DNA from: an uncultured Rickettsiales bacterium
GTDB taxonomy: Bacteria > Myxococcota_A > UBA796 > UBA9615 > CAYRNR01
NCBI GenBank assembly: GCA_964558555.1
Contig: CAZLEO010000005.1
Location: 10,968 to 74,967, forward strand
DNA: 64,000 bases
Direction of reading: 5' to 3'
Below the pieces are notes generated by a model. It was not told the DNA's origin and did not search any database. It saw only the letters and a program-made list of their open reading frames with translations. Of the stretch, positions 29,375 to 63,916 are shown one piece after another; within the stretch, counting starts at the first letter, position 1, and the number at the start of each line of letters is the position of its first letter. The position numbers and the translations under genes are program-made.

Positions 29375-29422
29375 GGTCCGTCTCCGCTTCACCCTGGGTT
29401 CGGACCTAGCGTAGCCGCGCTA

Positions 29423-29441
29423 TTGGACACATAATGTCCAA
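29423..29441. promoter_or_regulatory. perfect inverted repeat TTGGACA-cataa-TGTCCAA in the divergent promoter region; candidate WYL-regulator operator
   Basis: tattggacacataatgtccaaaac is a 7-bp perfect inverted repeat with a 5-nt spacer containing CATAAT. It lies between the AAA+ operon start and the WYL gene start at 29460. Confidence 0.5.
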
Positions 29442-29459
29442 AACGAATGGAGTGTCCCC

Positions 29460-30389
29460 ATGCCCCACGAAGAGAGCGTCCGTAGGAGTGTGGACGTCCT
29501 GCTCCGTGCTCAGGAGACAGGTCCTGGCGGCATACTCCTGCACGCTCTCGCCTCGGAGTGGGACGTCCACGAACGCACCGTCCGCCGCCTGGCCGCGGCC
29601 GCCGTGGAAGCCTCGGAGCGCCACACCTCGGCCGGACGCCTCGCCCGCGTCGGACGCGGCCGCACCGCTCGCCTCGTCTGGACCCCTGCCCTACCCTCCC
29701 GCGACGTGCACGCCACCGAGGCGTTGGCCTTGCTGGCCGCCACCGGTCCCTGGCGAAGTCTGGGCCACGACGACATCGCCGACACCCTCGACCGCCTCCT
29801 CGCCGCAGCCAGCCGGGACGCTCGAGCGGTGCGACGACGCGACCTGGATCGCCTCGCCCGCACCGGCTTCTGGTACCAGCCCTTCGGCCGCCGCCCCCAC
29901 CTCGATCCCGACGCCCTCGACCAGGTACTGAGCGCCCTGCTGTACAGCGCCGTCCTCCACGTGGGCCGCTACAGCTCCCCCGAAGAGCCCGCTCGCTCGC
30001 TGGATCTGGAGGTCCACAGCGTCGTCCACGCGTACGACGGCATTTACGTCCTCGGCCCCGAGATCGGCTCCGATCGCGGCCCCCAGATGTGGGCCGTGCA
30101 CCGCATGACCGATACCCGCTTCGACCGCAGCCGCCGCTACACCGTCCCTCCCGACCACGATCCCGCCACCTACCTCGGCCACGGCTACGGCCCCTTCCTC
30201 GGCACGGAGGGCGAGACCGAACTGTTCGTGCCCGACGACGAGGCCGACTACGTGATGGAGTACGAGCTGCCGTCGCAGATCGGAGCGCCCCGCCGCGTCG
30301 ACGGGGGCTGGGAGGTCACCCTGGACACCGGCGTGACGTGGGGGATGCGGCTGTGGTGCCGGTGGATGGGGGTGGAGATCGTGGGCTAG
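29460..30389 (+). CDS. WYL domain transcriptional regulator (wHTH-WYL-WCX; BrxR/CapW/PafBC-like)
   Basis: N-terminal HTH (LHALASEWDVHERTVRRL). The WYL-like core is ARSLDLEVHSVVHAYDGIYVLG...VHRMTDTRFDRS. The C-terminal WCX-like block is WEVTLDTGVTWGMRLWCRWMGVEIVG. Confidence 0.7.
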   Translation: MPHEESVRRSVDVLLRAQETGPGGILLHALASEWDVHERTVRRLAAAAVEASERHTSAGRLARVGRGRTARLVWTPALPSRDVHATEALALLAATGPWRSLGHDDIADTLDRLLAAASRDARAVRRRDLDRLARTGFWYQPFGRRPHLDPDALDQVLSALLYSAVLHVGRYSSPEEPARSLDLEVHSVVHAYDGIYVLGPEIGSDRGPQMWAVHRMTDTRFDRSRRYTVPPDHDPATYLGHGYGPFLGTEGETELFVPDDEADYVMEYELPSQIGAPRRVDGGWEVTLDTGVTWGMRLWCRWMGVEIVG

Positions 30390-50782: not shown

Positions 50783-50822
50783 TGTCAGACGGTGGTGAAG
50801 CCCGTCCGAGTCAGAGCGTTCC

Positions 50823-52114: not shown

Positions 52115-52834
52115 TCAAGCCGATCCGATCGGTCCTTCGTAGATCTCCTCGGCGAACAGGGTCGCCTTGACCTGCTCGAACATCTCCCCCGTGCCACGGA
52201 TGAGTTCCTCCCGGTCGGCCAGCCTGCGCTCGAGCATGTCCTCGGAGAGCGCCCTGAACCGCTGAAGGCATTCGTCGCGTGGCCCCACCTCGACCTCGCC
52301 GTCCACGAACGTGGGGATTCGCCCCGGGCTGACCTTGTGCAGCGTGGCCCATGTCGAGCCGCCCAGTACGACCCGGTTGAGCAGCAAGACGATGTGGTGC
52401 TCATCCCCGATCACGCACTCGGACTTGAGGACCACCGGCCAGCGGGTGCGGCCGAAGAAGTAGCCCTCTGCAGGCCCGAAGTAGCGGTCCCAGATCCCAT
52501 CCCCTTCCTCGACCAGGGGGCCCGGCATGCACTGCATCCGGGGAATGTGGCACAGCACCCATCCCAGATCGTGGGACCGTGAGTGCACCGGCATGCGTCC
52601 GGAGGCCGGCTTCTCGTCTGTCCCCGGGACCTCGGCCCCGAGCTCCTCGATTACCCAGGTGCACCAGTCCAGCCAGTGCATGGTCTCCCTGGGCATCTGA
52701 AGGCCCATCTGAGCGCAGAAGGACGCTCGATGGATCGAGACGTAGCCCGTGCATGCGCTGAGGAACAGGTCCCCCCAGGTCATGTCGTCCCAGTCCAGGT
52801 CGGTGTCGTCGGTAACGATGAAGGGTCTGGTCAT
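52115..52834 (-). CDS. hypothetical protein (239 aa)
   Basis: ATG 52834 sits behind GGAGAGGA. MTRPFIVTDDTDLDWDDMTWGDLF... No recognisable motifs. Confidence 0.5.
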   Translation of the reverse strand: MTRPFIVTDDTDLDWDDMTWGDLFLSACTGYVSIHRASFCAQMGLQMPRETMHWLDWCTWVIEELGAEVPGTDEKPASGRMPVHSRSHDLGWVLCHIPRMQCMPGPLVEEGDGIWDRYFGPAEGYFFGRTRWPVVLKSECVIGDEHHIVLLLNRVVLGGSTWATLHKVSPGRIPTFVDGEVEVGPRDECLQRFRALSEDMLERRLADREELIRGTGEMFEQVKATLFAEEIYEGPIGSA

Positions 52835-53166
52835 GATTCGAATCCTCTCCGGAGCCGGTTCAGCCCGACGTCCAGGTCCAGGACATCGCGAATCGAGGGA
52901 TCGATCAACGCCGATATTTGTTACCGCCGGCACTTGCGAACGGCCGACGGTACTCGTGCTGGCGGTACTGGGGTTACCGCCGGTTCGAGGGCACGATCTG
53001 GCCCGCACCTTGCATCGGATTGGCCCCCTCCAGAGCGAGGCCATGCCAAGGCCAAAACGACGGAAATGGCAGCCGGCCAAGAAATCTGATCACGAAACAC
53101 ACATGTCGCGTTCTACTAAGGAAGGACAGCAACCTTCCCGCCCAGCTGTCGCGAGGAGAAACGACC

Positions 53167-54327
53167 ATGCGCACCATCCATGTCCCGAAGCCGTCCTCCG
53201 CCTGGCACGTACTCGTCCATGGCCATCAGGACGGCTGGCAGGCGCTGTCCGACCTGCTACGGCCACCGACGCGAACCGCTCAGGAGCGACACTATGCGCA
53301 GCTCGTCAAGGCGCTGACACGGGCTGTCGGACTGGAACACAACTCGGCCGAAGACGGGGGATGGGCCACGGTGTGGACATCCAACTCCATCGAGGGAACC
53401 GACCTTGGAGAGCAACACTGGCGGACATGGATCTCCGTGGATGACGATCAAGGTGGCGAGCGGATGTTCGGTGCGCTGCTCAGGGCGCTCGACGAGCAGG
53501 ACATCCCGTTCGACTCTGCCGCGTGCCGGGAGATGCTGCCGCCCGAGAGTCACCCCGTGCATGCTCGGTGGGGGACATGGTGCTTCGGTCCGCAGCGAGG
53601 GAGCATCAAGGCCTCGCTCCAGCCCGAGCACGGCGTAGTCGGGGTCGAAGTGGTGCGAGAAGCACCGCTCCCTTCCCTGAAGTGCCTCGCGTGCGAAGCG
53701 ACGGCGAGCCCCATCCCTCGAATCCTCGGGTACCCCAGTCCTGAAGGCGAGCTCGGTGTCCTGCTCGGAGAGCTCGTCTACGGAACGTGCGTGGTGGGTG
53801 GGCCCATGGCCACGGCCGAATGCGGCGCGTGTGGGAAGGGGCTCGTGCCGGGCTCGGCTGACGAGGAAGAAGTCGTGGGATCGGTGACCGGTGGGTTCGC
53901 CCATCAGGCTCGGGTCGAGCGGTTCAGGCGCCTGATCGTGGGAGGACGGGCGGGCACCCTGGTCTGGACGCCCTACGCCACGCAGCGCAACGGCTGGTGG
54001 ATGTTCTCCCTGAGCGCGGCCGTGAGGCAACGGCTCTCCGCTGCCTCCAACGCCGTTGTTGCTCTGAGACCTCGCGGGCTCCCGGCGCTGTTCGTTCCCT
54101 GGGCGCACATCGAGCCGATGACCGTGGACGACGAGCGCGAACGGATGGCGCTGCGCGTATCGAAGCGCGAACCCACGACGGTGAAACTCGGCAAGGCGAC
54201 GGTGGACGCCGTGACCCACCCGGAGCGACTCACACCTCCACCACCCGCCCCCACGGCGCATCGCCATGGCGCTTCGGCGCGACCCACAAGACCGGATACG
54301 GAGGTCTGCGCGTGGGAAAGTGGCTGA
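53167..54327 (+). CDS. hypothetical protein (386 aa), GC-atypical
   Basis: ATG 53167 with GAGGAG 8 nt upstream. Preceded by a 330-nt lower-GC intergenic region. The C-terminal 98 nt overlap the convergent VWA gene. Confidence 0.45.
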   Translation: MRTIHVPKPSSAWHVLVHGHQDGWQALSDLLRPPTRTAQERHYAQLVKALTRAVGLEHNSAEDGGWATVWTSNSIEGTDLGEQHWRTWISVDDDQGGERMFGALLRALDEQDIPFDSAACREMLPPESHPVHARWGTWCFGPQRGSIKASLQPEHGVVGVEVVREAPLPSLKCLACEATASPIPRILGYPSPEGELGVLLGELVYGTCVVGGPMATAECGACGKGLVPGSADEEEVVGSVTGGFAHQARVERFRRLIVGGRAGTLVWTPYATQRNGWWMFSLSAAVRQRLSAASNAVVALRPRGLPALFVPWAHIEPMTVDDERERMALRVSKREPTTVKLGKATVDAVTHPERLTPPPPAPTAHRHGASARPTRPDTEVCAWESG

Positions 54328-55516
54328 ACAGATCGGTGAGCCCCACGAACAGGTCCGGGCGGAGGCGTCGCTCGTCGAGCCACCGGAACACGGGGCGGTG
54401 GTCCGTGCCGCCACCCCCGCGGAACCGGGCGTGGCGCAAGAATGACGCGATCTCCACGTCGTCCACGGCCTGCTGCACCCTGGCGTCGGCGACGAGCAAG
54501 GTCATCTCCTCGACCTCCTGCGACAGGGCGTGCAGCTCGGCGGCGATGTCGTCGAGCAGCTCGTCAGAGATGCTGCCCGAGGTGTCCACGGCCACGACCA
54601 CGCAGCCCGCGCGCTCCGAGTGGATTCCAGGGACCAGCAGATCCTGCTCGAGGTACCGCCGGTTGGGCCGCGACAGGGCGTAGTCGTCCCGAGCGGTGGC
54701 CTGGCCGGCGTAGCTGCGGAAGAGCCGCTGCCAGGGTACGCGACGGCGACCTGCCCCCTGGATATCCCGCACCAGAGCCCCGGGCAGGTGCCCGGCCTGG
54801 TCCTGTCGCGACCAGGCCTCCACCGCCGCAGCGACGCGGCCGTGCAGCTCCTCGCGCTCGGCCGAGGAGAGCCCCCGGGGGAGGTGGACGTCGATCCCAC
54901 CGCCGTGATCGGTCACGTTGGGGACGACGACGCGGCCCGGCAGCACGGTGTTCTCGCCGCCGCCACCAGATCCGCCCGACTGGATTTCCAGCGTGAGCGT
55001 CACGCTCACCGGCTCGGGCAGCTCCTCGGCGGCGAGGTACTCGTAGATGGCCTCGGCGATCTTGCCGTCCCAGCGGGTGTCCAGGAGGATCTGGATGTCG
55101 CCAAGTCCCTCGATCTTGCCTTGAGGGGGGTCGTACAGCGCCCGGCCCGGCCGCGCCGGGTGCTGGATCTGCGACACGATCCGGTTGATGGCGTAGTCGG
55201 TGGCGCAGTTCCACAGCTGGGGGTTGCGGCCGCGCTCGCGGTCCTGGGTGGCGTAGAGCTGGTGCCCGACCTCGTGGGCGAGCACGAAGCCGAGCTGCTC
55301 GTGGCTCAGGTGCCGTGTCTTGAGCGGGTTGAACCAGATGTGACGCACGCAGTCGGTCGCCGCGATGCCCTCCAGCTCCGGGGCCGGCACCACGTGGACC
55401 TGCAGCAGCAGGTATCCCCAGAACGGGTGCATCTGGAGCATCTGCATCCGCAGCATCGACACGCGCTTCTCCTCGGCGGCGATGACGGCGTCGAGGTCGG
55501 GCGCAGCGCGGCTCAT
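54230..55516 (-). CDS. VWA-like domain protein with N-terminal putative metallopeptidase domain (DUF2201_N/DUF2201-type; MoxR-associated vWA protein)
   Basis: FVLAHEVGHQLYATQDRERGRNPQLWNCATDYAINRIV has HExxH and DxxxN motifs. The C-terminal VWA is VVVAVDTSGSISDELLD...GGGTD. ATG 55516 overlaps the MoxR stop (ATGA). Confidence 0.75.
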   Translation of the reverse strand: MSRAAPDLDAVIAAEEKRVSMLRMQMLQMHPFWGYLLLQVHVVPAPELEGIAATDCVRHIWFNPLKTRHLSHEQLGFVLAHEVGHQLYATQDRERGRNPQLWNCATDYAINRIVSQIQHPARPGRALYDPPQGKIEGLGDIQILLDTRWDGKIAEAIYEYLAAEELPEPVSVTLTLEIQSGGSGGGGENTVLPGRVVVPNVTDHGGGIDVHLPRGLSSAEREELHGRVAAAVEAWSRQDQAGHLPGALVRDIQGAGRRRVPWQRLFRSYAGQATARDDYALSRPNRRYLEQDLLVPGIHSERAGCVVVAVDTSGSISDELLDDIAAELHALSQEVEEMTLLVADARVQQAVDDVEIASFLRHARFRGGGGTDHRPVFRWLDERRLRPDLFVGLTDLFSHFPTRRPPYPVLWVAPKRHGDAPWGRVVEV

Positions 55517-56595
55517 GCGTACAGCCCTGCGTGGACACCCGCGAGCTGCGACGCCAGGGCCCGGTACTCCGGGACCCCCTTGAGCCGGGAGCGCAGCTCG
55601 GCGTCCACCTGGCGCAGGAACAGGAACACGTACTCCATGTCCAGCCCAGGCGACCGCAGGAACTTGACCACGTTGGGCAGGTCCCGGTCGCGCGCCTTGC
55701 CCTCGTGGTTGAGCCAGGCGGCCACGGCGTAGATGGCCGCGTACACGTACGAGGGCTCGGCCTTCTTGCCCTTGCGGAAGTCCTGGGCGTGGCCCTTGCG
55801 GATGATCCGCGCGGCGTTGACCCGGCGGTAGATCCGCAGGTAGCTGTCGAGCTTCTCCGCCGCCACCACCCCCACGCACGCGGCCACGGCCCGCTTGCGC
55901 AGCTCTTCGGGGCTGCGACGATAGACCTCGCTGGCCATGGCCCAGCTACGCGGCGTGGGGAACGCCATCTCGCCGTCGTTGTCGTACAGGGCCGGCTCCC
56001 CGTGGCGGCCGATGTAGGCCAGGACCGCCTCGTGGACCCCCTGCTCGGCGCCCCACTCCAGCCACGACCGCGCGTCCACGCGTAGCGTGAAATGCGCGAA
56101 GCGGTTGCACAGCGCCGAGGACAGCTGCGTGACGATGGCGTTGTCCTCTTCGAGGTTCCCCGCCGCCATCACCACCGTCCCCGGGTGGAACCGGAACGGC
56201 CCGACCCGCTTCTCCAGCACGATCTGGTAGGCCGCGGCCTGGTGCAGCCGCGTCACCGCGGCGTTGACCTCGTCGAGGAAGACCATCACCGGCTCCTCGC
56301 TGGCCTGCCGCACCCAGTCGGGCGGGAACAGCGACAGCACCTTCTTCCTGCGGTCGGGGAAGTACACTCCACCGAGCTCGGCCGGGTCCCGCTGGGCCAG
56401 CCGGATGTCCACCATCGGCAGGTCCATCTTCTCGGCCAGGCCAGCCGCGAGAGTCGACTTGCCCACTCCCGGGTGTCCCCGCAACAGCACCGAGATCCCG
56501 GCGCTCAGCGTCGCCTCGATCAGCGGCCCCAGCTCCGCGTGGGTGTACCCCTCGACGAGCTGCGGCGCGGCCTTCTTCTTCTTCCTCGCAGGCAT
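55513..56595 (-). CDS. MoxR-like AAA+ ATPase
   Basis: SVLLRGHPGVGKSTLA is Walker A and VMVFLDEVNAA is Walker B. MoxR/CbbQ-type C-terminal helical domain. ATG 56595 after AGGAGA. Confidence 0.8.
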   Translation of the reverse strand: MPARKKKKAAPQLVEGYTHAELGPLIEATLSAGISVLLRGHPGVGKSTLAAGLAEKMDLPMVDIRLAQRDPAELGGVYFPDRRKKVLSLFPPDWVRQASEEPVMVFLDEVNAAVTRLHQAAAYQIVLEKRVGPFRFHPGTVVMAAGNLEEDNAIVTQLSSALCNRFAHFTLRVDARSWLEWGAEQGVHEAVLAYIGRHGEPALYDNDGEMAFPTPRSWAMASEVYRRSPEELRKRAVAACVGVVAAEKLDSYLRIYRRVNAARIIRKGHAQDFRKGKKAEPSYVYAAIYAVAAWLNHEGKARDRDLPNVVKFLRSPGLDMEYVFLFLRQVDAELRSRLKGVPEYRALASQLAGVHAGLYA

Positions 56596-56603
56596 GGCGT
56601 CTC

Positions 56604-57212
56604 CTAGAGCATCACGTCGAGCAGCTGGTACTTCAGGTCCTCGTGCTTGAGCAGCACCGCGATCACGTGCTTGCAGTACCCCCCCGTCACGTCCTTGCGG
56701 TGTTCCGCGTCCGGGCACGTGCAGCTCGGCGGTCCCGACCAGTCCTCGAACACCCGCACCTCGTAGGGCCGGGTCCCACCTTCGAGCGCAAACACCTGCA
56801 CCCCCTCGGCCACCCCCTTCACCTCGATCCGATACCGCTTGATCACGTCGTGCGCCGCGCGCAGGAACCGCTGGTCCCGCGCACGGATGTCGATGGTCAC
56901 CTGCCTGTCCGTCATGCCCTGGCCTCCGTTTCCCAGCACGTTCACGGGCGCCCGATATCGGACCCCGTCCACCCAGACCACACCCTCGGCGCAGCGCTGG
57001 TTCAGCCACTGCGTCCACTCGACCAGCAGATACCGCTGAACGCTGGCCTGTCGGCCGAACCAGACCGACGCGTACACGTAGAAGCTGCGACTGTTCACCT
57101 CGCGCACCCGATACACCGCTCCCAGCGCCCACTTGTTCAGCGGCGAGGCTCCGGGCGAGTAGTCCGCCCGGTCGAGTACGAACACGATCATCCCGCGCTG
57201 AGGTGCCTTCAT
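56604..57212 (-). CDS. SWIM zinc-finger protein
   Basis: The C-terminus SCTCPDAEHRKDVTGGYCKHVIAVLL is a CxC...CxH SWIM finger. It is the first gene of a three-gene operon with the MoxR and VWA genes. Confidence 0.7.
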   Translation of the reverse strand: MKAPQRGMIVFVLDRADYSPGASPLNKWALGAVYRVREVNSRSFYVYASVWFGRQASVQRYLLVEWTQWLNQRCAEGVVWVDGVRYRAPVNVLGNGGQGMTDRQVTIDIRARDQRFLRAAHDVIKRYRIEVKGVAEGVQVFALEGGTRPYEVRVFEDWSGPPSCTCPDAEHRKDVTGGYCKHVIAVLLKHEDLKYQLLDVML

Positions 57213-57248
57213 CTCGCCCTCTTTCACGACTGGTTCTACCGTCTGGGC

Positions 57249-57264
57249 TGGACAGCGGTTGTCA
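57249..57264. promoter_or_regulatory. inverted repeat TGGACA-gcggt-TGTCA in the SWIM/WYL divergent promoter region; candidate operator
   Basis: ctggacagcggttgtcacc shares the GGACA-N5-TGTC core with the palindrome at 29423-29441. Confidence 0.4.
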
Positions 57265-57305
57265 CCGACAGGCCGTTCCCGCACAATCTCCCCTCGGAGG
57301 TCCCC

Positions 57306-58319
57306 ATGCCCGGTACCAAGCCCACGTACTCCGACGGCATCCAGATGGTGCAGATGCTCCAGTGGCTCGAGGCCAGCTCCAACCGTCAATTGCGGATCAA
57401 CGCCATTGCCGAGCGGATGGAGGTCCACCGCCGCACCGTGATCCGCTATGTGGACGCCCTCAACGCCTCGGTGGACAACGACCTGGGTGAGCCCATCGTC
57501 GAGCGGGTGGGCACCGGCGTGCGGGCCGTGGCCAAGCTGGGCCAGCGGGTCCAGCCCCTGTCCGCGCGCATCTTCCAGTTCGCGGCCGTCTACGCGGCCA
57601 CCCGATCACAGGAATCCGGTGGGGGTTCCCTGCTCAGCGACGCCACGGGCCCTCTCCTGGAACAGATGGAGGCTGGCTTCGAGATGAACCTCCGGCCCAT
57701 CGCCCGGCGCGTCCACGATGCATTCCACCACGTGCCGTTCGGACCCAAGGACTACCGGGCCAACCAGGACGCCCTCGACGCCGTGGTCCGCGGCGCCCTG
57801 TACCACCGGCCGGTGACGATCCGGTACCGCACCCTCGACGGATGGAAGATCACCAAGAAGATCGAGCCGTTCACCCTGCTGACCTACCGCGACGGCCTGT
57901 ACGTTCTGGCGCGACAAAAGGTGAAGAAGGGCCCGCGCATGCGGCTGTACGCGGTGGATCGCATCCTCGAGGCGGACCTGCACCGGAAAGAGGAGTTCAA
58001 GGTCCCGGCCGGCTACCGGCCCGAGGACTTCTTCCGCGGATCGCTGGGCCTGTGGCAGACCGACAAGCGCGCCCAGCGCATCCGGATCGCGTTCGACGCC
58101 GACGTGGTCGCCGTGGTCAAGGAGCGCCAGTGGCCGGGCATCGAGGGGTGGGAGGAGCTCGACGACGGGCGCTGGGCCCTGGATCTCAAGGTGCCCGTCA
58201 CCCCCGAGGTCGTCACATGGATCATCACCTGGGGCCGCGCCGCCGAGGTGCTCGCGCCCAAGACGTTGCGGCGGCGAGTGCAGGGTGAGCTGAAGGCCGC
58301 GCTGGCCCAGTACAGCTAG
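57306..58319 (+). CDS. WYL domain transcriptional regulator (wHTH-WYL-WCX, BrxR/CapW-like)
   Basis: N-terminal HTH (LRINAIAERMEVHRRTVIRYVDAL). The WYL core is HRPVTIRYRTLDGWKITKKIEPFTLLTYRDGLYVLARQ...LYAVDRI. The WCX is VTPEVVTWIITWGRAAEVLAPKTLRRRV. ATG 57306 with GGAGG 6 nt upstream. Confidence 0.85.
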   Translation: MPGTKPTYSDGIQMVQMLQWLEASSNRQLRINAIAERMEVHRRTVIRYVDALNASVDNDLGEPIVERVGTGVRAVAKLGQRVQPLSARIFQFAAVYAATRSQESGGGSLLSDATGPLLEQMEAGFEMNLRPIARRVHDAFHHVPFGPKDYRANQDALDAVVRGALYHRPVTIRYRTLDGWKITKKIEPFTLLTYRDGLYVLARQKVKKGPRMRLYAVDRILEADLHRKEEFKVPAGYRPEDFFRGSLGLWQTDKRAQRIRIAFDADVVAVVKERQWPGIEGWEELDDGRWALDLKVPVTPEVVTWIITWGRAAEVLAPKTLRRRVQGELKAALAQYS

Positions 58320-59800
58320 AAAGGGATGTCGCCGTCCGAGGCGTCATCACCAGGCGTCCACTCCCAGGTTCGCTTCGCCACCCCGCAGAGATCGCTGTCC
58401 TGGTCGAACCACGGACCGAACAGCACCAGGTACACCTCGAGACGAGCGTCCCGTGCACGCCCGACGAGCCCCTCGTCCACCCCACCGTACCCGTCGGTCA
58501 ACACCAGGATCCTCCGATACCGCTGCTCCAGCGCGTGGTCGAGGATGCAGTCGAAGTCGGTCCCGCCCGTGGTCTCGTACCTGCCCTCGGCCAGGTCCCC
58601 CAGCAGCGCCGTGGACACCTGGTTCGAGAACACGTGCACCCGGTCCCCCACGTGATCCTCCAGGGCCGTGCACAGCCGAAACAAGAAAGGCAGCTGCTCG
58701 TCCATGGACCCCGATCCGTCCACGTACAGCTGGACCCGCTGGTCGTCCTCGATCTCCTGCTCCAGCGGCGCGGTCCAGAACAGCGGCGTGCAGCCCAGGG
58801 CCAGGCTCAGCGCCTCGGACCGTCCGAGGCGGCCCACCACCCCCCGTTCCGCCGTGAGCGCCTTGCGCGTGACGGGATGATCCGGGTCGGCGTCCATGGC
58901 CAGCCGGATGGCCGCGAGCAGTGGGGCGGGATCGGGCTGGCCGTCGTCGAGCTGGAGTTCCTGCAGGCGCAGGAACTTGCCGTGGCCGCCGTGGATGCCG
59001 AAGACCTCGGACAGGATGCGGGCGTCGCCCTTCCACTGGACATCCCTCAGCTCGTGGTCGCCCAGCAGAATGGGGACATTGCCCAGGACCAGCGGGAGCT
59101 CCTCGGCCATGGCGTCGCAGAACTGCGGCCAGAACTCGGCAAACCCCTGCGAATCCAGCCAGGCGTTGAGGTACAGCTCGGCCACGGCCGATGGTCGCCG
59201 TACCCCCACGCGGTTGAGCGCGTCCTTGAGCAGCCCGTGAAGCTGGGAACGTGCGGCATAGGTCGGCCCGAAGCGGCCGGTGCGGGGGTCGACAGCGAGC
59301 AGGTCCTCGACCTCTGCGCAGCCGTGCTCCCGCAGCAGCACGATGGGCGGCAGGAGCAGCATCTCCGGGAATGCGTTGGGCCGATACAGCCGCTGCAGAT
59401 ACGGTGCCCCCTCGCCGTCGAACCACATCCGCTCCAGCTGGGCGTCCACGAACATGTCCAGGGCCAGGCCCAGCAGGGTCCTGGTGGTGAAGTCCAGGTG
59501 CACGAACCGCGACAGGTCACCGCGGACACGATGCAGGATCTCGTGGGCGAGCAGGTGCAGCGCAGAGTCGTCCTCGAGGACCTTCTCCGCCACGAACTCC
59601 GGGTCCACCTCGATCACCGCGCCACGGCTCGACGCCCTCAGCCGCGCCGAGCCCACACCGGGCGCCTCTTGCACGCGCAGGCAACCACCGTCACTGTCCA
59701 GCAACCACATCAGCAGGTTCAGCGCCCGGCGGCCGCGCGGATGATCCATCCGACGTCGCGCGGCCTGCAGCGCAGCAGGCAGGAACTCGGCAAACCTCAC
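58316..59800 (-). CDS. VWA domain protein with N-terminal HExxH metallopeptidase-like domain (second MoxR-associated vWA protein)
   Basis: LLAHEILHRV is an HExxH motif. The C-terminal VWA is LYVDGSGSMDEQL...TTGGTDF. GTG 59800 overlaps the upstream stop (GTGA) and has GAGGTG 5 nt upstream. Confidence 0.7.
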   Translation of the reverse strand: MRFAEFLPAALQAARRRMDHPRGRRALNLLMWLLDSDGGCLRVQEAPGVGSARLRASSRGAVIEVDPEFVAEKVLEDDSALHLLAHEILHRVRGDLSRFVHLDFTTRTLLGLALDMFVDAQLERMWFDGEGAPYLQRLYRPNAFPEMLLLPPIVLLREHGCAEVEDLLAVDPRTGRFGPTYAARSQLHGLLKDALNRVGVRRPSAVAELYLNAWLDSQGFAEFWPQFCDAMAEELPLVLGNVPILLGDHELRDVQWKGDARILSEVFGIHGGHGKFLRLQELQLDDGQPDPAPLLAAIRLAMDADPDHPVTRKALTAERGVVGRLGRSEALSLALGCTPLFWTAPLEQEIEDDQRVQLYVDGSGSMDEQLPFLFRLCTALEDHVGDRVHVFSNQVSTALLGDLAEGRYETTGGTDFDCILDHALEQRYRRILVLTDGYGGVDEGLVGRARDARLEVYLVLFGPWFDQDSDLCGVAKRTWEWTPGDDASDGDIPF

Positions 59801-60864
59801 GCCGTCACCTCGGGCGTCGGGAGCGCTCCGACGAGCAGCGAAGCGCCCGGCGGCTCCACGTGGGCGACGGGCGGGTTCTGCGGCAGGTAGGTCCCGCCCA
59901 CGGTCCTCGACAGCACCGCGCGCACGGCGGCGGGGTCGTCGATCACGGGGAGGTCCGTGGACAGTCGCGTCGGATCGGACAGCAACCCCGGCTCCACCAG
60001 GAAGCACGGCGGGAGGCTCTCGTCCACGTCAGCAACAACGTCGTTGCACTCCATGTGATCCGGGACACGCAGCACGAATCTCGGCCACAACTCGGCCATG
60101 GGCACGCGCCCGCGGGCCGAAGAGGAACACGCCGTACCATGCTCGTCGAACCGCCTGTAGACCGCGTCAGGCAGCCTGTCGTATGCGCTGTACCTGCGTG
60201 TGACCCCGCGATCGACGTGGATCACCTGGCTGTTGTGCCCCGATCCCACGATGAGCCACTCGCAGTAGGGGACCGTCAGATCGCCCACCGCCAGCGTCCG
60301 CTCGATGGCCACGGCCAGGGCCTCGCTGCGCGACCGGCAGTAGTACGCGTGCCCGGGCCGGTCCAGGCGCACCCAGCCGTGGTTTTCCAGGTCCAGATTG
60401 TCGGCTTCCACCAGCGGCAGCGCCGGGCCGGGCCCGCACGTGTCGCCCTTGTCGACGAACGCCTCGAGCGCGACCCGCCGCTGCGCCACGGTCGTGCGAC
60501 CACGCTGGATCTCCCGCAAGCGCTCGTCCAGCGCGCTGCTCCCCACCGGCGCCCACCGGGCCAGCAGGAAGTCGATCAACGCCGAGCGGGACGCGTACGC
60601 GATCAGACCATCGAAGCTCTCGGTGCCGTCGTCTCCTCGCAGGGACACACGGCCCGGTACCGGGTCGTACAGCCGACGACGGCGCCTGAACCTCCTCCCG
60701 CGCCGGCGACAGAGATAGCGCCCATCCGCCGCAACCGCCGAGGACTCCTCCAGCGCCCCGAACTCCTCCTCGACCGCGTGGGCGAGGGACACATCCACAC
60801 ACGCCGCCTCCAGCACGTCCACGTAGGGCCTACGCTCCCTGAGCCTGTAGCACGTGATCTTCAT
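59797..60864 (-). CDS. hypothetical protein (355 aa), middle gene of the second MoxR-VWA operon
   Basis: ATG 60864 follows AAGGAGGGGAGG and overlaps the MoxR stop (ATGA). MKITCYRLRERRPYVDVLEAAC... No recognisable domain. Confidence 0.55.
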   Translation of the reverse strand: MKITCYRLRERRPYVDVLEAACVDVSLAHAVEEEFGALEESSAVAADGRYLCRRRGRRFRRRRRLYDPVPGRVSLRGDDGTESFDGLIAYASRSALIDFLLARWAPVGSSALDERLREIQRGRTTVAQRRVALEAFVDKGDTCGPGPALPLVEADNLDLENHGWVRLDRPGHAYYCRSRSEALAVAIERTLAVGDLTVPYCEWLIVGSGHNSQVIHVDRGVTRRYSAYDRLPDAVYRRFDEHGTACSSSARGRVPMAELWPRFVLRVPDHMECNDVVADVDESLPPCFLVEPGLLSDPTRLSTDLPVIDDPAAVRAVLSRTVGGTYLPQNPPVAHVEPPGASLLVGALPTPEVTA

Positions 60865-62393
60865 GACGGCCTCCCCTCCTTGCCGGTCAGGCCTTCGCTC
60901 ACCTCGGCCCGCTTCTTCCCGGCCATGTCCACGTCCGCCCGATCGTCCACGTCCCCCACCCGGTCCCGCGACAGCTCGATGGCCGCCCGCGAGGCCAGCC
61001 AGTCCAGGTCTCCGGAGAACGCGCGCGGATCCTTCGCCACCTCCTGGGCCAGGTCCGCCACCTCGTCCCAGTCCGAGCTGTGCAGCCCGGACACCGCCCG
61101 CCACGAGTCGAAGATGCGGCTGACCACGTCCAGGGGCATCCGCGCGTGGTGCCTCGCCGCCACCTCCACCAGCCGCCTCAGCGCCGGCACCGACTCCCCC
61201 CAGCGCCGGGCGCTGACGCCGGCCTCCTCCCCCAGCGGCCGCACCACCCGGCTGACCACCTCGTGGTGGTCCTCCTCCCCGAGGTCACCGAGCGCATCCT
61301 CGTACTGCTCCACCATCTGTTCCAGCGACGTCTGAGCGAACACCGAGCACGCCGCCTGGCTCCCCGCGCCCTTCGCCCCTTCTTCCCCGGCAAAGCTCTG
61401 CTCCCACGCCGCCAGGTGCACCGGGTACAGCACCGTGCTCGGCACCGCCTCGTCCAGCGCCGGCCCCGGCAGCAGATGTCGCACACAATCGAACAGCGCG
61501 CCCTCGTCCGGCACGTCCTTGCCCCGCACCCGGTCCACCGCCATGCCCGCGGCCAGCGCGCGATACATCAACGACAGCCGCCTGCCGTCCAGGTCGATCT
61601 TCTGGGCCCTCAACAGCGCCTGGAAGCTCCTCACGTAATCCACCAGGGGCGGGCCGTACTCCTCGACCACCTCCCCCAGTACGACCCTGGACTCCTCCAC
61701 CACCCGCGCGATCCCCTCCCCCGCCTCGATCCGGTCGCCCTGCCCGTTCCAGACCTCCTTGCACCCCGGCGCGTCCGCCGCCGTCACCGTGCGGATCACC
61801 GCATCCACCTGCTGCGCGGTCATGTCCTTCACCGTCGGCATCGTCACGATGTAGGCGAACCGCCCCACCAGCGCCGGGTCCAGCGTCCTCGCCCCCAGGT
61901 AGCCGGGGGGGTTCATCGCCCCGAACACCATCTTCAGCGACTCCACCGCCTGCCCCATCACCCGCCGCGATCGGACGACCTCCAGCCACTTGTTCTGCAT
62001 CGCAGGTGCGGCACGCGACAGTTCGTCCACCAGCACGAACTCGACACCCCAGATGGAGATCTCGGTGGGGACGTAGCCGAGCTTGCCCTCGCCGAGATCC
62101 CGAGGGTTCGGGAAGCCGATGATGTCCTCGAACAGCGCCTTGGACGCGTCGTACGCGCGGAAGCGCATCGCCAGGGCGTCGGCAAGGGCCTCGGCCATCG
62201 CGGTCTTGGCGGTACCGTGCGCGCCCACCAGCAAGAGCGGATCGCCCGTGACCAGCGACGCCAGCACGGGCGTGGCAATGGTCTCCATCCCGTACAGGCC
62301 GACGGCCTCCAGGGGATCACGGCGGATACGCTCGGAAAGGGACTGTGACACGGGGGCCACGGCCACGGGCGCCGTTGCGGTGTCCTCGAACAT
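60861..62393 (-). CDS. MoxR-like AAA+ ATPase with long C-terminal extension (510 aa)
   Basis: PLLLVGAHGTAKTAMAEALA is Walker A and VEFVLVDELSRAAPAMQNKWLEVV is Walker B. AAA_3/5-like. Confidence 0.75.
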   Translation of the reverse strand: MFEDTATAPVAVAPVSQSLSERIRRDPLEAVGLYGMETIATPVLASLVTGDPLLLVGAHGTAKTAMAEALADALAMRFRAYDASKALFEDIIGFPNPRDLGEGKLGYVPTEISIWGVEFVLVDELSRAAPAMQNKWLEVVRSRRVMGQAVESLKMVFGAMNPPGYLGARTLDPALVGRFAYIVTMPTVKDMTAQQVDAVIRTVTAADAPGCKEVWNGQGDRIEAGEGIARVVEESRVVLGEVVEEYGPPLVDYVRSFQALLRAQKIDLDGRRLSLMYRALAAGMAVDRVRGKDVPDEGALFDCVRHLLPGPALDEAVPSTVLYPVHLAAWEQSFAGEEGAKGAGSQAACSVFAQTSLEQMVEQYEDALGDLGEEDHHEVVSRVVRPLGEEAGVSARRWGESVPALRRLVEVAARHHARMPLDVVSRIFDSWRAVSGLHSSDWDEVADLAQEVAKDPRAFSGDLDWLASRAAIELSRDRVGDVDDRADVDMAGKKRAEVSEGLTGKEGRPS

Positions 62394-62502
62394 GACTCAC
62401 CTCCATGAGATGGGGTGAGTGTAGGGGTGGGGCTGGACAGGGGTTGTCCAGGAAGAGCCGGAAGGTTCGTGTAGGATTCACGAACACGAGGGAGCCGAGC
62501 CC

Positions 62503-63016: not shown

Positions 63017-63916
63017 CTAGGAATCCTTGCTGGAGCTTGCCTCGCCATTCTCTCCGGCTGCCTTCCTCGCCTTCTGCCTGATCTGGTACATCTGCAGCGC
63101 CAGCCCACCCGCGAAGTACTCCAGCCACTCCGTGTAGTCCCCCGTCCGGTCCGCAGTGCGCAGCGTGGCGTAGTAGTTGTCTCGATTCTTGTTGTAGTAG
63201 CTCGCCAGGTCGAACAGGTACTTGTAGTCGTACCCGCGCTGGTACAACAACGCTGTCGTGAGCATCCTCGCGGTCCGGCCGTTGCCGTCGACGAAGGGAT
63301 GGATCCACACGAGGCGGTGCTGCAAGATCCCCGCGACCAGCACCGGGTGCGTCCAGCCGTCGACGACCCCCCGGCGGACCTGCGCCGGCGTCGGCTTGTG
63401 CTTGCAGCCATCGACCCAATCGAGCAGCTCGCGCAGCTCGTCCTCGACCCGGCCCCAGGGTGGCGGCTGGTGGTGGACGACCGTCTCCTCGCCCTGCACA
63501 TCCCCTACACACACGTCTTCGCGTCGGATCTGGCCGGCGAAGCGGTCCCCGCCACGGACGCCCTCTACCAGGCGACGATGGATATCCCGGAGATCACTGA
63601 TCCGGAACGTGTACTCGCGCGCACCGCGGAGATCCTCGATGGCGCCGAAAACACCGAGGTAGTTCAGGAACTCCTTCTCCGAGTCACGCAGCTCCCGTTC
63701 TCTCGGCTCCTTGATCAGCTCGAACGCCATCTCCAGCGTCAGGGAGTTCCCCTCGATCTGCACGCTCGCAAGGGCGTCCTCGACCCGCACGGCCTGGCGT
63801 AGCTCACCGACCCATTCGGGCCGCATGCGTACGGCCGAGAGCATGCCGCGGGTGCGTTCGATCGCGACCAGCTGGCGCTGGATGCGGGGAGTCAGTCGAT
63901 AGGTGGGTTCGAACAT
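63017..63916 (-). CDS. Fic/DOC family protein (Fido domain)
   Basis: HPFVDGNGRTARML matches the Fic motif HPFx[D/E]GNGRxxR. 299 aa. Confidence 0.85.
   Translation of the reverse strand: MFEPTYRLTPRIQRQLVAIERTRGMLSAVRMRPEWVGELRQAVRVEDALASVQIEGNSLTLEMAFELIKEPRERELRDSEKEFLNYLGVFGAIEDLRGAREYTFRISDLRDIHRRLVEGVRGGDRFAGQIRREDVCVGDVQGEETVVHHQPPPWGRVEDELRELLDWVDGCKHKPTPAQVRRGVVDGWTHPVLVAGILQHRLVWIHPFVDGNGRTARMLTTALLYQRGYDYKYLFDLASYYNKNRDNYYATLRTADRTGDYTEWLEYFAGGLALQMYQIRQKARKAAGENGEASSSKDS

What the first reader, a model, noticed from the sequence alone, without database searches (positions are those of the whole stretch)
54230..58319. SWIM – MoxR – VWA(HExxH) ternary system under a divergent WYL regulator
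The operon (56604..57212, 55513..56595, 54230..55516) is tightly packed; the MoxR stop and VWA start share ATGA. The VWA protein carries a putative metallopeptidase N-domain (HEVGHQLY...ATDYAIN). MoxR–vWA ternary systems with an associated third component have been proposed as NTP-dependent conflict or defense systems, enriched in multicellular bacteria such as myxobacteria. The adjacent WYL regulator (57306..58319), a hallmark of defense-island regulation, strengthens that reading.
Basis: partly seen in the sequence, partly recalled or inferred. Interest (0 to 1): 0.7.

Follow-up and report, generated by a model that had tools for sequence, protein, structure and literature searches.

The report
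WYL-controlled SWIM–MoxR–protease/VWA operon
A real, widely conserved three-gene ATPase/protease module under a DNA-damage-type (WYL) switch that has not been described before; in relatives it is repeatedly built into operons with the DNA-end-processing enzymes RecBCD/AddAB, so it may serve DNA-break handling as much as phage defence.

Summary
The four genes exist exactly as described, and the domain calls hold: SWIM, a MoxR-type AAA+ ATPase, DUF2201_N zincin plus DUF2201 VWA, and HTH-WYL-WCX.

The SWIM–MoxR–VWA triad is conserved in 56 of 57 evaluable related loci from Myxococcota, Lentisphaerota, Planctomycetota and others.

It is not one of the four published MoxR–vWA ternary classes. It matches no PADLOC system. 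Most relatives have no defence-island context.

The recurrent partners are:
- a divergent WYL regulator, in about one third of loci;
- a Cdc48/VCP-like double-AAA protein, in 25 of 65 loci;
- RecBCD or AddAB, in 13 of 65 loci. These occur in at least seven arrangements, three of them tightly packed on the same strand.

The ATPase–VWA pair alone is a core gene pair of N4-like and jumbo phages, and it also occurs on conjugative plasmids.

The WYL/SWIM intergenic region carries a palindrome, GGACA-N5-TGTCC, placed as a −26 element. The geometry, TGTCca-N10-TAnnnT, matches the PafBC "sigma adaptation" promoter. The same promoter precedes a neighbouring bpMoxR–vWA operon. It also precedes a double-AAA/DnaE2-like polymerase operon 28 kb away.

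Best reading: an ssDNA-induced ATP-dependent remodeller/protease that works with DNA-end processing. Dedicated anti-phage defence remains a serious rival.

The parts
57306..58319 (+). HTH_11-WYL-WCX transcription factor (WYL1), divergent from the operon
   Evidence: Pfam WCX 6.6e-13, WYL 5e-9, HTH_11 3.6e-7. The only solved relative is DriD 8TP8, a weak full-length match with E 0.0096. A divergent WYL gene is found in about 19 of ~53 evaluable related loci.
57233..57264 (-). Operator and activator-type promoter for the SWIM operon. The palindrome GGACAGCGGTTGTCA lies at 57250-57264. Its promoter-proximal half-site TGTCC is followed by 11 nt and then TAGAAC (57238-57233).
   Evidence: The motif is conserved upstream of SWIM in L011, L014, L015, L029, L036, L061, L069 and L072. 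GACA-N5-TGTC-N12-TA occurs 3 times in the window against 0.03 expected. The geometry equals the PafBC consensus tGTCgg(N10)tA(N3)T (PMC8635444).
57259..57287 (+). Sigma-70-like promoter of the WYL gene (TTGTCA-17-CACAAT). Its -35 hexamer overlaps the operator.
   Evidence: Consensus scan. The overlap suggests autoregulation; this is an inference.
56604..57212 (-). Adaptor protein with an N-terminal SH3/Tudor-like beta-barrel (res ~8-86), a disordered linker, a helix plus SWIM zinc finger (res ~109-190), and an invariant C-terminal tail QLLDVxL
55513..56595 (-). MoxR-type AAA+ ATPase
   Evidence: Pfam AAA/AAA_5. PHROG 1297, full length, 1.7e-66. Midasin and NVL AAA domains are the best solved matches. 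Walker A/B, sensor-1 and Arg are conserved.
54230..55516 (-). Two-domain protein: an N-terminal zincin-like metallopeptidase (HExxH) and a C-terminal VWA domain with a complete MIDAS
58316..62449 (-). Neighbouring second MoxR-vWA operon with its own copy of the promoter (62418-62449). It comprises bpMoxR 60861-62393, an unknown 355-aa protein at 59797-60864, and a 494-aa protein at 58316-59800 with a DUF2201-like VWA/MIDAS at its C-terminus. It is probably in the same regulon.
   Evidence: Pfam bpMoxR 2.5e-7 and AAA_5. hhalign to A1 gives E 2.9e-4, 40% probability, over the MIDAS region. The P-loop GAHGTAKT resembles the GXXXTAKS variant described in PMC7159879 sec. 22. Promoter. Syntenic in L069.
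24363..30389 (.). Distant operon with the same promoter type. It comprises a double-AAA protein at 27236-29392(-), a DnaE2-like Pol III alpha at 24363-27824(-) whose true start is probably near 27239, the palindrome GGACACATAATGTCC at 29425-29439, and a WYL paralogue at 29460-30389(+).
   Evidence: Pfam PHP/DNA_pol3_alpha/HHH_6 and 2x AAA. The WYL paralogue has BLASTP E 8e-9 to WYL1. The double-AAA is 30% identical to the WHD-AAA2 of L069. Promoter.
63017..63916 (-). Fic-domain protein, SoFic-like. It recurs near the triad in relatives, and membership in the system is uncertain.
   Evidence: Pfam Fic 9.8e-19. PADLOC SoFic 1.9e-45. Homologues at E<=1e-110 lie near the triad in L011, L028, L029, L037, L039 and L069, and a weaker Fic hit (7e-10) lies near it in L038.

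Best explanation
This is an inducible ATP-dependent protein-remodelling/protease module that belongs to a small WYL regulon and works alongside DNA-end processing.

Proposed steps:
1. Single-stranded DNA binds the WYL domain of the HTH-WYL-WCX dimer. The ssDNA could come from break resection, stalled replication or an invading replicon.
2. The dimer occupies the palindrome GGACA-N5-TGTCC. The promoter-proximal half-site sits at about -26 and replaces a -35 element. Transcription of the SWIM-MoxR-VWA operon is therefore activated in a PafBC-like way. The regulator's own promoter overlaps the same site.
3. The operon supplies three proteins:
   - an adaptor (SH3-like barrel + SWIM finger);
   - a hexameric MoxR ATPase;
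   - a VWA protein whose MIDAS site grips an acidic peptide and whose fused HExxH zincin cuts.
4. The MIDAS ligand may be the adaptor's invariant C-terminal QLLDV tail, or it may be the target itself.
5. The target is proposed to be a protein sitting on DNA or DNA ends that hinders RecBCD/AddAB. Candidates are a covalent or tight DNA-protein adduct, an end-blocking protein or a nuclease inhibitor.
6. In many relatives a Cdc48/VCP-like double-AAA unfoldase is an extra partner.

Shown: the gene set, intact catalytic motifs, conservation of the triad, the shared promoter motif, and the recurrent physical linkage to WYL, double-AAA and RecBCD/AddAB genes.

Inferred: the inducer, activation rather than repression, the adaptor-MIDAS contact, proteolysis, and the identity of the target.
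For: - Triad conservation with the same order in 56/57 evaluable loci.
- Invariant HExxH and MIDAS and an intact ATPase.
- RecBCD or AddAB lies within 10 kb in 13 of 65 loci, and in 11 of the 33 loci with at least 15 kb.
- The arrangements differ. They include tightly packed same-strand arrays: L063 SWIM-MoxR-VWA-AAA2-RecC-RecB-RecD with gaps of 15 bp or less; L030 VWA-RecCBD with a 16-bp gap; L046 VWA-AddB-AddA.
- RecBCD is also adjacent in the closest relative L069, in L071 and in L076.
- Linkage to two different end-resection complexes, RecBCD and AddAB, argues for function rather than inherited synteny.
- A VCP/Cdc48-like WHD-double-AAA is present in 25 of 65 loci.
- A DnaE2-like polymerase lies directly downstream of the triad in a Lentisphaeria locus, L043.
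- In the window, a DnaE2-like polymerase sits behind the same promoter type.
- Promoter: GACA-N5-TGTC-N12-TA occurs 3 times against 0.03 expected in the window. All three copies lie 16-25 bp upstream of the start codons of minus-strand operons.
- The motif occurs 20 times in 1.1 Mb of loci, almost only before SWIM, bpMoxR or double-AAA genes.
- The geometry is identical to tGTCgg(N10)tA(N3)T of PafBC.
- ssDNA is the effector of DriD, CapW and PafBC.
- DriD is the only solved relative of the window WYL.
Against: - No experiment exists for any member.
- All related chromosomal loci come from MAGs, so the phylogenetic independence of the RecBCD linkage cannot be fully assessed. It is seen only in the Myxococcota-like part of the family.
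- Lentisphaerota/Victivallales loci carry the bare triad among glycosidases and other housekeeping genes.
- The window itself has no RecBCD/AddAB and no adjacent double-AAA. Synteny with L069 stops at the VWA stop codon.
- The DnaE2-like operon is next to its own WYL paralogue with a different spacer, so co-regulation with the triad is not proven.
- Defence genes are present in several loci (GmrSD, AbiE, MmeI RM, TerY-P-like, SoFic-like Fic).
- The ATPase-VWA pair is a core gene pair of lytic phages and is present on plasmids. This fits a conflict role at least as well.
- The peptidase fold assignment rests on Pfam plus only a weak Foldseek match.
Confidence: 0.4

Rival explanations
1. It is a dedicated anti-phage or anti-mobile-element conflict system. 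The WYL regulator senses infection-derived ssDNA. The MoxR-VWA couple acts as a thresholding switch. The zincin is the effector or activator protease, causing abortive infection or destroying a phage protein. The SWIM protein is the sensor.
For: - Defence genes flank the triad in several relatives: GmrSD, HNH, YhcG, AbiEii/AbiEi and a second AAA-DUF2201 set in L003; an MmeI-type RM in L069; a TerY-P-like set in L071.
- A SoFic-like Fic (PADLOC 1.9e-45) recurs near the triad in L011, L028, L029, L037, L039 and L069 and is in the window; a weaker Fic hit (7e-10) lies near it in L038.
- The associated double-AAA is IetA-like, 5.6e-56. IetA pairs with a protease in the Iet defence system (recalled from memory).
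- A bpMoxR-vWA operon of the type described as a conflict system lies next door under the same promoter.
- The distribution is patchy across phyla, with two paralogous copies in one MAG (L034/L054).
- GC3 is lower (0.80-0.83) than in core genes of the window (0.9-0.97).
- Homologues occur in phages and plasmids.
- CapW/BrxR-type WYL regulators control immune systems (PMC11662680).
Against: - No PADLOC hit for SWIM, MoxR or VWA beyond generic AAA similarity.
- A census of 117 immediate neighbours shows few defence genes (about 10) and many housekeeping genes.
- The architecture is fixed, with no variable effector.
- Operon-level fusion with RecBCD/AddAB is not typical of known defence systems.
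- The promoter type is that of a DNA-damage activator.
Confidence: 0.3
2. It is a classical MoxR-VWA chaperone/maturase, like NorQD, CbbQO, RavA-ViaA or CoxDE. Its client would be a DNA-metabolism enzyme such as RecBCD/AddAB or a damage-inducible polymerase. It would assemble, reactivate or release the client from DNA, and the HExxH domain would serve binding rather than proteolysis.
For: - Recurrent adjacency and co-orientation with one class of enzyme complex.
- The MoxR-VWA couple generally remodels a bound client (PMC7159879 sec. 8).
Against: - HExxH and a downstream Asp are invariant across 20 diverse homologues. This points to catalysis.
- Most loci have the triad without any candidate client nearby.
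- Phages and plasmids carry the pair without RecBCD.
Confidence: 0.12
3. It is a domesticated or still selfish mobile-element module. The AAA-DUF2201 pair evolved in phages and conjugative elements to help incoming DNA establish itself, for example by neutralising host nucleases. The chromosomal copies would be remnants or cargo with a similar element-serving role.
For: - Both proteins match phage families over their full length, PHROG 1297 and 1314, each 1.7e-66.
- 282 phage records carry a homologue, mostly N4-like Schitoviridae and jumbo phages, with the same ATPase-then-VWA order.
- 96 plasmids carry one, e.g. pBMC401 next to T4SS/PRTRC genes.
- Codon usage in the window is atypical.
Against: - No integrase, tRNA, phage structural or conjugation genes lie near the triad in the window or in most loci.
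- Phage and plasmid homologues are only 24-32% identical and lack the SWIM partner.
- The chromosomal clade has its own host-type regulator and promoter.
Confidence: 0.08

Closest known systems
MoxR-vWA-centric ternary conflict systems (Kaur, Burroughs, Iyer, Aravind 2020, PMC7159879)
   Same: An adjacent MoxR AAA+ and vWA(MIDAS) couple plus a conserved third protein. It is frequent in Myxococcota. The neighbouring operon at 58316-62393 has a bpMoxR-type ATPase (PF20030) with the unusual GxxxTAKT P-loop.
   Different: The third component is a SWIM protein, not VMAP, iSTAND, an FtsH-type double AAA or a beta-propeller. The vWA protein has a fixed N-terminal zincin instead of variable C-terminal effectors. 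The triad's MoxR does not match PF20030. DUF2201 and SWIM are not mentioned in that paper.
N4-like (Schitoviridae) and jumbo-phage ATPase + DUF2201 'metallopeptidase/VWA' gene pair (PHROG 1297 + 1314)
   Same: Same two families over their full length and the same gene order.
   Different: 24-28% identity. The phages have no SWIM partner and no WYL. The phage pair sits among early/DNA-metabolism genes. Its function is also unknown, and PHROG mislabels it 'HNH endonuclease'.
PafBC / DriD WYL regulons of the DNA-damage response
   Same: HTH-WYL-WCX architecture. The promoter has a GTC-containing element at about -26, a canonical -10, no -35, and the same spacing as tGTCgg(N10)tA(N3)T. A DnaE2-like polymerase lies behind the same promoter type. 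DriD is the only solved relative.
   Different: The site here is a palindrome (a homodimer, as for DriD), whereas the PafBC motif is non-palindromic. The organism is a Myxococcota MAG, not an actinobacterium. Sequence similarity to DriD is marginal (E 0.0096). The regulon seen is tiny and contains MoxR-vWA modules.
E. coli yehLMPQ (MoxR YehL, VWA YehP, SWIM YehQ; uncharacterised)
   Same: The same three domain types occur in one operon.
   Different: No detectable pairwise similarity to the triad proteins. The gene order and sizes differ: YehQ is 614 aa and there is an extra YehM. YehP is not annotated with a zincin domain; its domain content was not scanned here.
Eukaryotic Cdc48/p97 with the metalloproteases Wss1/SPRTN in DNA-protein crosslink repair (compared from memory)
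   Same: An HExxH protease combined with a Cdc48/VCP-like double-AAA unfoldase, linked to DNA repair genes.
   Different: Analogy only. No homology between DUF2201_N and Wss1/SPRTN was tested or shown. The MoxR and VWA parts have no counterpart there. The window itself lacks the adjacent double-AAA.
IetAS (Gao_Iet) ATPase + protease defence system
   Same: The associated double-AAA is strongly IetA-like, PADLOC 5.6e-56. The logic of an ATPase plus a protease is shared.
   Different: IetS is a serine protease. The triad proteins themselves give only weak generic AAA hits to IetA, about 1e-6.

Membership tests
MoxR-vWA ternary conflict systems (PMC7159879) | Adjacent MoxR AAA+ ATPase and vWA protein with MIDAS | tested here: met
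MoxR-vWA ternary conflict systems (PMC7159879) | Third conserved component is VMAP, iSTAND, an FtsH-type double AAA, or a beta-propeller fused to vWA | tested here: not met
   The third gene is an SH3-like + SWIM protein. The class definitions were read. A double-AAA does occur in 25 of 65 relatives, but both of its AAA domains keep P-loops and it carries a WHD, unlike the FtsH class as described.
MoxR-vWA ternary conflict systems (PMC7159879) | Variable effector domains fused to the vWA component, or a hypervariable third component | tested here: not met
   All 120 listed homologues have the same PF13203+PF09967 architecture and similar length.
Known anti-phage defence systems (PADLOC-DB 2.0) | Component proteins match system-specific models | tested here: not met
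   The VWA protein has no hit. SWIM gives only PDC-S62 at 0.0014. MoxR gives only generic TRIP13/IetA AAA hits. Only the neighbouring Fic matches SoFic.
Defence-island residents (guilt by association) | Homologues are predominantly flanked by known defence genes | tested here: inconclusive
   The context is clearly defence-like in L003, L069 and L071. In the census of 117 nearest neighbours only a few match defence families, and many are housekeeping. No formal defence score could be computed.
PafBC/DriD-type WYL DNA-damage regulon | wHTH-WYL-WCX regulator | tested here: met
   Pfam. Full-length but weak match to DriD 8TP8.
PafBC/DriD-type WYL DNA-damage regulon | Hybrid promoter with a regulator-specific element at -23..-28, a canonical -10, and no -35 | tested here: met
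   TGTCca-N10-TA(N3)T/C upstream of three operons in the window and before orthologous genes in 8 other loci. The consensus was read in PMC8635444. This is sequence evidence only.
PafBC/DriD-type WYL DNA-damage regulon | Activation by ssDNA binding to the WYL domain; induction by DNA damage | not testable with these tools
   Needs EMSA, in vitro transcription or expression data.
PafBC/DriD-type WYL DNA-damage regulon | Regulon contains DNA repair/tolerance genes | tested here: inconclusive
   A DnaE2-like polymerase operon carries the same promoter type but sits next to a WYL paralogue. RecBCD/AddAB are linked in relatives, but no motif was seen directly before them.
MoxR-VWA chaperone/client pairs (NorQD, CbbQO, RavA-ViaA, CoxDE) | Conserved genomic linkage to a client enzyme | tested here: inconclusive
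   RecBCD/AddAB are linked in 13 of 65 loci, with three operon-like fusions. There is none in the window or in Lentisphaerota loci.
Phage ATPase + DUF2201 pair (PHROG 1297/1314) | Both proteins match the two PHROG profiles end to end and are adjacent in that order | tested here: met
   1.7e-66 for each, covering 10-349/356 and 10-389/394 of the profiles. Order confirmed in KpCHEMY26. Membership is at the protein-family level. The window locus shows no phage or integrase genes or tRNAs.
E. coli YehLMPQ | Sequence homology of the components | tested here: not met
   No significant BLASTP or phmmer match between the triad and YehL/P/Q.

The most novel reading that the evidence does not exclude
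The triad, with the Cdc48/VCP-like double-AAA found in relatives, is a bacterial counterpart of the eukaryotic p97-SPRTN/Wss1 pathway. It would be an ssDNA-induced, ATP-driven protease that strips covalently or tightly bound proteins from DNA ends so that RecBCD/AddAB can load. Such proteins could include phage end-protection proteins or RecBCD inhibitors. It would be switched on by PafBC-like sigma adaptation outside the Actinobacteria. The phage and plasmid versions of the ATPase-protease pair would then be the offensive mirror image, acting on host end-processing factors.
Probability: 0.15. Interest if true: 0.9.

Novelty: new variant of a known kind. Interest (0 to 1): 0.68.

Why it matters
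DUF2201 is a large family with no assigned function. It has about 8,600 cluster representatives at E<=1e-10. It is a core gene pair of N4-like phages and is common on large plasmids.

This locus gives it a defined partner set: a SWIM adaptor, a MoxR ATPase, a WYL switch and often a Cdc48-like ATPase. It also gives it a concrete, testable functional neighbourhood in RecBCD/AddAB.

If the RecBCD link is functional, it would reveal either a new accessory pathway for double-strand-break processing or a new layer of RecBCD-centred immunity.

The promoter finding suggests that PafBC-style −26 hybrid promoters, so far described in actinobacteria, also operate with homodimeric WYL regulators in Myxococcota. 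That would give a simple sequence handle for mapping such regulons.

Tried and rejected
- Exact-sequence look-up of the VWA protein and of its 100% cluster representative found no contig. The SWIM protein did find one and showed only that the source is an environmental metagenome.
- NCBIfam gave no specific family for any of the genes.
- Literature searches found nothing describing this system. The terms tried were DUF2201, SWIM+VWA+anti-phage+AAA, yehLPQ, MoxR+RecBCD, and N4-like+von Willebrand+ATPase.
- The idea that the triad is homologous to E. coli YehLMPQ was rejected, as there is no similarity.
- The idea that the triad is the FtsH-class ternary system was considered because of the double-AAA partner. 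It was rejected after reading the class definition.
- A prophage or integrative-element origin for the window locus was considered. No tRNA, integrase or phage structural genes were found.
- The one-mismatch version of the operator pattern is not enriched, 17 against 19 expected. Only the exact and extended patterns are enriched.
- The middle protein of the second operon gave no family or PDB match.
- The automated presence/absence table under-calls SWIM and WYL because of overlapping stop-to-stop ORFs. For those two features the counts were used instead.

Full report
**1. What is in the sequence**

Their Pfam hits are:

| Coordinates | Strand | Pfam result |
|---|---|---|
| 56604-57212 | − | SWIM finger at residues 161-189, 1.7e-7 |
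| 55513-56595 | − | AAA 2.3e-8, AAA_5 2.1e-5 |
| 54230-55516 | − | DUF2201_N "putative metallopeptidase" 4.8e-25 plus DUF2201 VWA 6.5e-26 |
| 57306-58319 | + | HTH_11 + WYL + WCX |

- The MoxR stop and the VWA start share ATGA.
- The SWIM stop is followed by 8 nt containing GGAG, then the MoxR ATG.
- Catalytic residues are intact and conserved. HExxH (H81/E82/H85), D107 and the MIDAS set D311-x-S313-x-S315, T371 and D395 are invariant in 20 homologues.
- In the ATPase, Walker A, Walker B (D108 E109), N147 and R165 are conserved in at least 95% of 60 sequences.
- The window is 65-73% G+C, so many long spurious ORFs overlap these genes. Codon-position G+C supports the four frames.

**2. The SWIM protein**

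- Homologues come in two forms. A long form of about 200 aa aligns with the window protein from residue 2-3. A short form of about 105 aa corresponds to residues ~100-202. The proposed start at 57212 therefore stands.
- The AlphaFold model (pLDDT 85.7) shows a small beta-barrel (residues 8-86), a disordered linker, and a helix + sheet + SWIM finger.
- The C-terminal heptad QLLDVxL is nearly invariant. MIDAS sites bind an acidic residue of a ligand peptide. I therefore suggest, as an inference only, that this tail docks on the VWA domain.

**3. The VWA-zincin protein**

- The helical N-domain gives only a weak Foldseek match (E ~0.05) to the minimal metallopeptidase selecase (prob 0.92-0.97).
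- No solved relative exists by sequence apart from a marginal Ro60 VWA hit.

**4. Conservation elsewhere**

- The VWA protein has 573 homologues at E<=1e-10 in a capped search. All 120 listed share the same two-domain architecture.
- In the exhaustive library there are 8,567 cluster representatives at E<=1e-10 and 979 at E<=1e-30.
- Sixty-two genome loci were fetched and a few more by exact look-up. All are MAGs. They are labelled Myxococcota/"Deltaproteobacteria", Lentisphaerota/Victivallales, Planctomycetota, Bradymonadia, Rifleibacterium and others.
- A SWIM gene lies directly upstream of the MoxR gene in 56 of the 57 loci where upstream sequence is available. The triad is therefore a real, conserved unit.

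**5. Relatives on mobile elements**

- Both the ATPase and the VWA protein match phage families end to end (PHROG 1297 and 1314, each 1.7e-66). PHROG 1314 is mislabelled "HNH endonuclease".
- tblastn finds the VWA protein in 282 phage records. Most are N4-like Schitoviridae. Jumbo phages G, PA5oct and Atu_ph07 also carry it.
- In Klebsiella phage KpCHEMY26 the ATPase gene directly precedes the "DUF2201 metallopeptidase" gene.
- Ninety-six plasmids carry homologues at 27-32% identity. On Burkholderia pBMC401 the gene lies next to T4SS and PRTRC genes.
- No phage encodes a relative of the SWIM protein. The SWIM-linked clade is chromosomal and distinct.

**6. Is it a known defence system or ternary system?**

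- PADLOC gives no system-specific hit for the three proteins. NCBIfam gives none either.
- The paper that defined MoxR-vWA ternary conflict systems lists four classes: VMAP, iSTAND, FtsH and beta-propeller. It mentions neither DUF2201 nor SWIM.
- The triad has the MoxR-vWA couple. It lacks the defining third components and the variable effectors.
- E. coli yehLMPQ combines the same three domain types but shows no sequence similarity. It is an analogue, not a relative.

**7. Genomic context of relatives**

I clustered the four genes on each side of the triad in all loci and annotated the recurrent clusters.

The recurrent neighbours are:
- (a) A divergent WYL regulator, in about 19 of ~53 evaluable loci.
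- (b) A protein of about 750 aa with an N-terminal winged-helix domain (PF22977) and two classical AAA domains. It is VCP/Cdc48-like by sequence. It occurs in 25 of 65 loci and 16 of the 33 loci of at least 15 kb. It is often the next gene after the VWA gene, or sits directly before SWIM.
- (c) RecB/RecC/RecD, or AddA/AddB-like helicase-nucleases, in 13 of 65 loci and 11 of the 33 long ones.
- (d) A Fic protein, in six loci.

The remaining 117 nearest neighbours are heterogeneous:
- a few defence families (YhcG/DUF1016 x3, GmrSD x2, AbiEi, REase-ARP, HEC-06);
- two transposases;
- many housekeeping genes (DXP synthase, SurE, amidase, glycosidases, MFS).

A defence-island context is obvious in some loci:
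- L003 has GmrSD, HNH, YhcG, AbiE and ADP-ribosylglycohydrolase.
- L069 has an MmeI-type RM.
- L071 has a TerY-P-like trio.

It is not the rule.

**8. The RecBCD/AddAB link**

The arrangements differ:

| Loci | Arrangement |
|---|---|
| L015, L076 | RecC>RecB>RecD> <WYL triad> |
| L069 | triad>AAA2> <RecD<RecB<RecC |
| L071 | <RecB<RecC AAA2>triad> |
| L030 | triad>RecC>RecB>RecD, 16-bp gap |
| L063 | SWIM>MoxR>VWA>AAA2>RecC>RecB>RecD, all gaps 15 bp or less |
| L046 | triad>AddB>AddA |
| L019, L025 | <AddA<AddB upstream |

- The link involves two different end-resection machines.
- The gene orders differ, and three arrays are operon-like.
- The VWA proteins at these loci are only 33-82% identical to the window's.
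- Together these points argue for a functional connection rather than inherited synteny.
- The caveats are that all of these are MAGs and that they belong to the Myxococcota-like part of the family.
- The window itself lacks this segment. DNA synteny with the 82%-identical relative L069 runs from Fic to the VWA stop codon and ends there.

**9. The regulator and its promoter**

- Aligning WYL-SWIM intergenic regions revealed a palindrome GGACA-N5-TGTCC.
- The exact core GGACA-N5-TGTC gives 5 strand hits at three places in the 64-kb window, against 0.55 expected.
- The extended form GACA-N5-TGTC-N12-TA occurs 3 times against 0.03 expected, with 0 of 100 shuffles reaching 3.
- All three copies are on the minus strand, 16-25 bp upstream of the start codons of minus-strand operons:
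  - the SWIM operon (57233-57263);
  - the adjacent bpMoxR operon (62418-62448);
  - a double-AAA/DnaE2-like polymerase operon (29408-29438) that is divergent from a WYL paralogue.
- In 1.1 Mb of related loci the motif occurs 20 times. Almost all copies lie directly before SWIM, bpMoxR or double-AAA genes. L069 has three copies.
- The geometry is TGTCca-N10-TA(N3)T/C. This is the same as the PafBC consensus tGTCgg(N10)tA(N3)T, a -26 element plus a -10 without a -35, which works by sigma adaptation (PMC8635444; PMC11804915).
- On the other strand, a sigma-70-like promoter for the WYL gene uses the other half-site as its -35: TTGTCA-17-CACAAT.
- The only solved relative of the WYL protein is DriD (8TP8), with a weak E of 0.0096 over the full length.
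- DriD, CapW and PafBC all use ssDNA as effector.
- I therefore infer that the operon is activated when ssDNA accumulates. Nothing here tests that.

**10. Neighbouring genes in the window**

- Beyond the WYL gene lies a second MoxR-vWA operon.
  - bpMoxR is at 60861-62393 (PF20030 2.5e-7). Its P-loop is GAHGTAKT, close to the GxxxTAKS variant noted for the beta-propeller/FtsH classes.
  - A 355-aa protein without any match follows.
  - A 494-aa protein follows whose C-terminus aligns with the DUF2201 MIDAS region (hhalign E 2.9e-4, 40% probability).
- Next comes a His_Phos_1 gene.
- Then comes a Fic protein that matches the SoFic defence model at 1.9e-45.
- On the other side of the triad, the region from 47 to 54 kb has lower G+C (0.646). 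It holds orphan ORFs, an AAA_16 STAND-like ATPase with a C-terminal HTH, and an FG-GAP/MopE repeat protein.
- There is no tRNA and no integrase.
- GC3 of the triad, WYL and the second operon is 0.80-0.84. Most other genes of the window are at 0.9-0.97. This suggests horizontal acquisition.

**11. Interpretation**

Shown:
- a conserved three-gene unit with intact ATPase, MIDAS and HExxH motifs;
- a divergent WYL regulator in the window and about a third of relatives;
- a shared PafBC-like promoter on three operons of the window;
- recurrent linkage to a Cdc48-like ATPase and to RecBCD/AddAB;
- homologous two-gene pairs in lytic phages and plasmids.

Inferred:
- ssDNA induction;
- activation by a sigma-adaptation-like mechanism;
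- the SWIM protein as adaptor docking on the MIDAS;
- ATP-driven remodelling followed by cleavage of a protein on DNA or DNA ends.

I rate this "DNA-end proteostasis" reading at about 0.4. I rate a dedicated anti-phage/anti-MGE system at about 0.3. The two overlap, because RecBCD is both a repair enzyme and an anti-phage nuclease and because ssDNA signals both damage and infection. A non-proteolytic chaperone role (0.12) and a mobile-element-serving role (0.08) remain possible.

**12. Novelty**

No paper in the searchable library describes this gene set.

- The kind of system, a MoxR-vWA couple with a third component under a WYL regulator, is known.
- The combination of SWIM adaptor, zincin-VWA, Cdc48-like partner and RecBCD/AddAB linkage appears undescribed.
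- So does a PafBC-type hybrid promoter outside the actinobacteria.

I class it as a new variant of a known kind, with moderately high interest.

Noticed in passing
window 58316-62449 (-): A second MoxR-vWA operon lies directly beyond the WYL gene. It has a bpMoxR-type ATPase (P-loop GAHGTAKT), an unmatched 355-aa protein, and a 494-aa protein with a DUF2201-like VWA/MIDAS C-terminus. It has its own copy of the GGACA-N5-TGTCC / -26-type promoter. It is syntenic with the triad in L069 and lies near it in L003-type loci.
   Followed up: partly
window 24363-30389: A double-AAA protein (27236-29392, -) is followed by a DnaE2-like Pol III alpha (24363-27824, -; true start probably near 27239). Both are divergent from a WYL paralogue (29460-30389, +). 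The intergenic region holds a perfect palindrome GGACACATAATGTCC and the same promoter geometry. A Cdc48-like ATPase in place of ImuA/ImuB next to an error-prone-type polymerase is unusual.
   Followed up: partly
window 63017-63916 (-): A Fic-domain protein matches the PADLOC SoFic model (1.9e-45). Close homologues (E<=1e-110) recur within a few kb of the triad in L011, L028, L029, L037, L039 and L069, and a weaker Fic hit (7e-10) lies near it in L038.
   Followed up: partly
window 47054-54327: This is a lower-GC stretch (0.646 against about 0.70). It holds an FG-GAP/MopE repeat protein (47054-49222), an AAA_16 STAND-like ATPase with a C-terminal HTH (49347-50621), a small secreted-looking protein, and two orphan ORFs (about 52115-52831 on the minus strand and about 53167-54327 on the plus strand). 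It replaces the WHD-AAA2 + RecDBC segment found after the VWA gene in the 82%-identical relative L069. Synteny ends exactly at the VWA stop.
   Followed up: partly
window 62503-63006 (+): A 167-aa histidine-phosphatase-family (His_Phos_1) gene is inserted between the bpMoxR promoter and the Fic gene. It is absent at that position in L069.
   Followed up: no
L003 1-2842 and 8578-12057: One Myxococcota MAG carries two AAA-DUF2201 sets within 10 kb. One is followed by a stand-alone 226-aa WHD (PF22977) protein. The other has a short SWIM gene upstream and an extra long SWIM-like gene downstream. Its WYL intergenic region has a different repeated motif (CGGACAT-N5-TGACCGATACCCC, twice).
   Followed up: partly
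L076 17027-21266; L071 18470-21148: Other candidate conflict modules lie near the triad in relatives. L076 has a ThiF/E1-like protein, an AAA protein and a giant TPR/STAND protein. L071 has a TerY-P-like VWA + PP2C phosphatase + Ser/Thr kinase trio.
   Followed up: no
PHROG 1314 / phage records (e.g. NC_027381.1, NC_020849.1): The phage DUF2201 metallopeptidase-VWA family is widely annotated as 'HNH endonuclease' in PHROGs and GenBank phage records. No HNH domain was detected in the window homologue (Pfam), so this looks like an annotation error that has propagated.
   Followed up: partly
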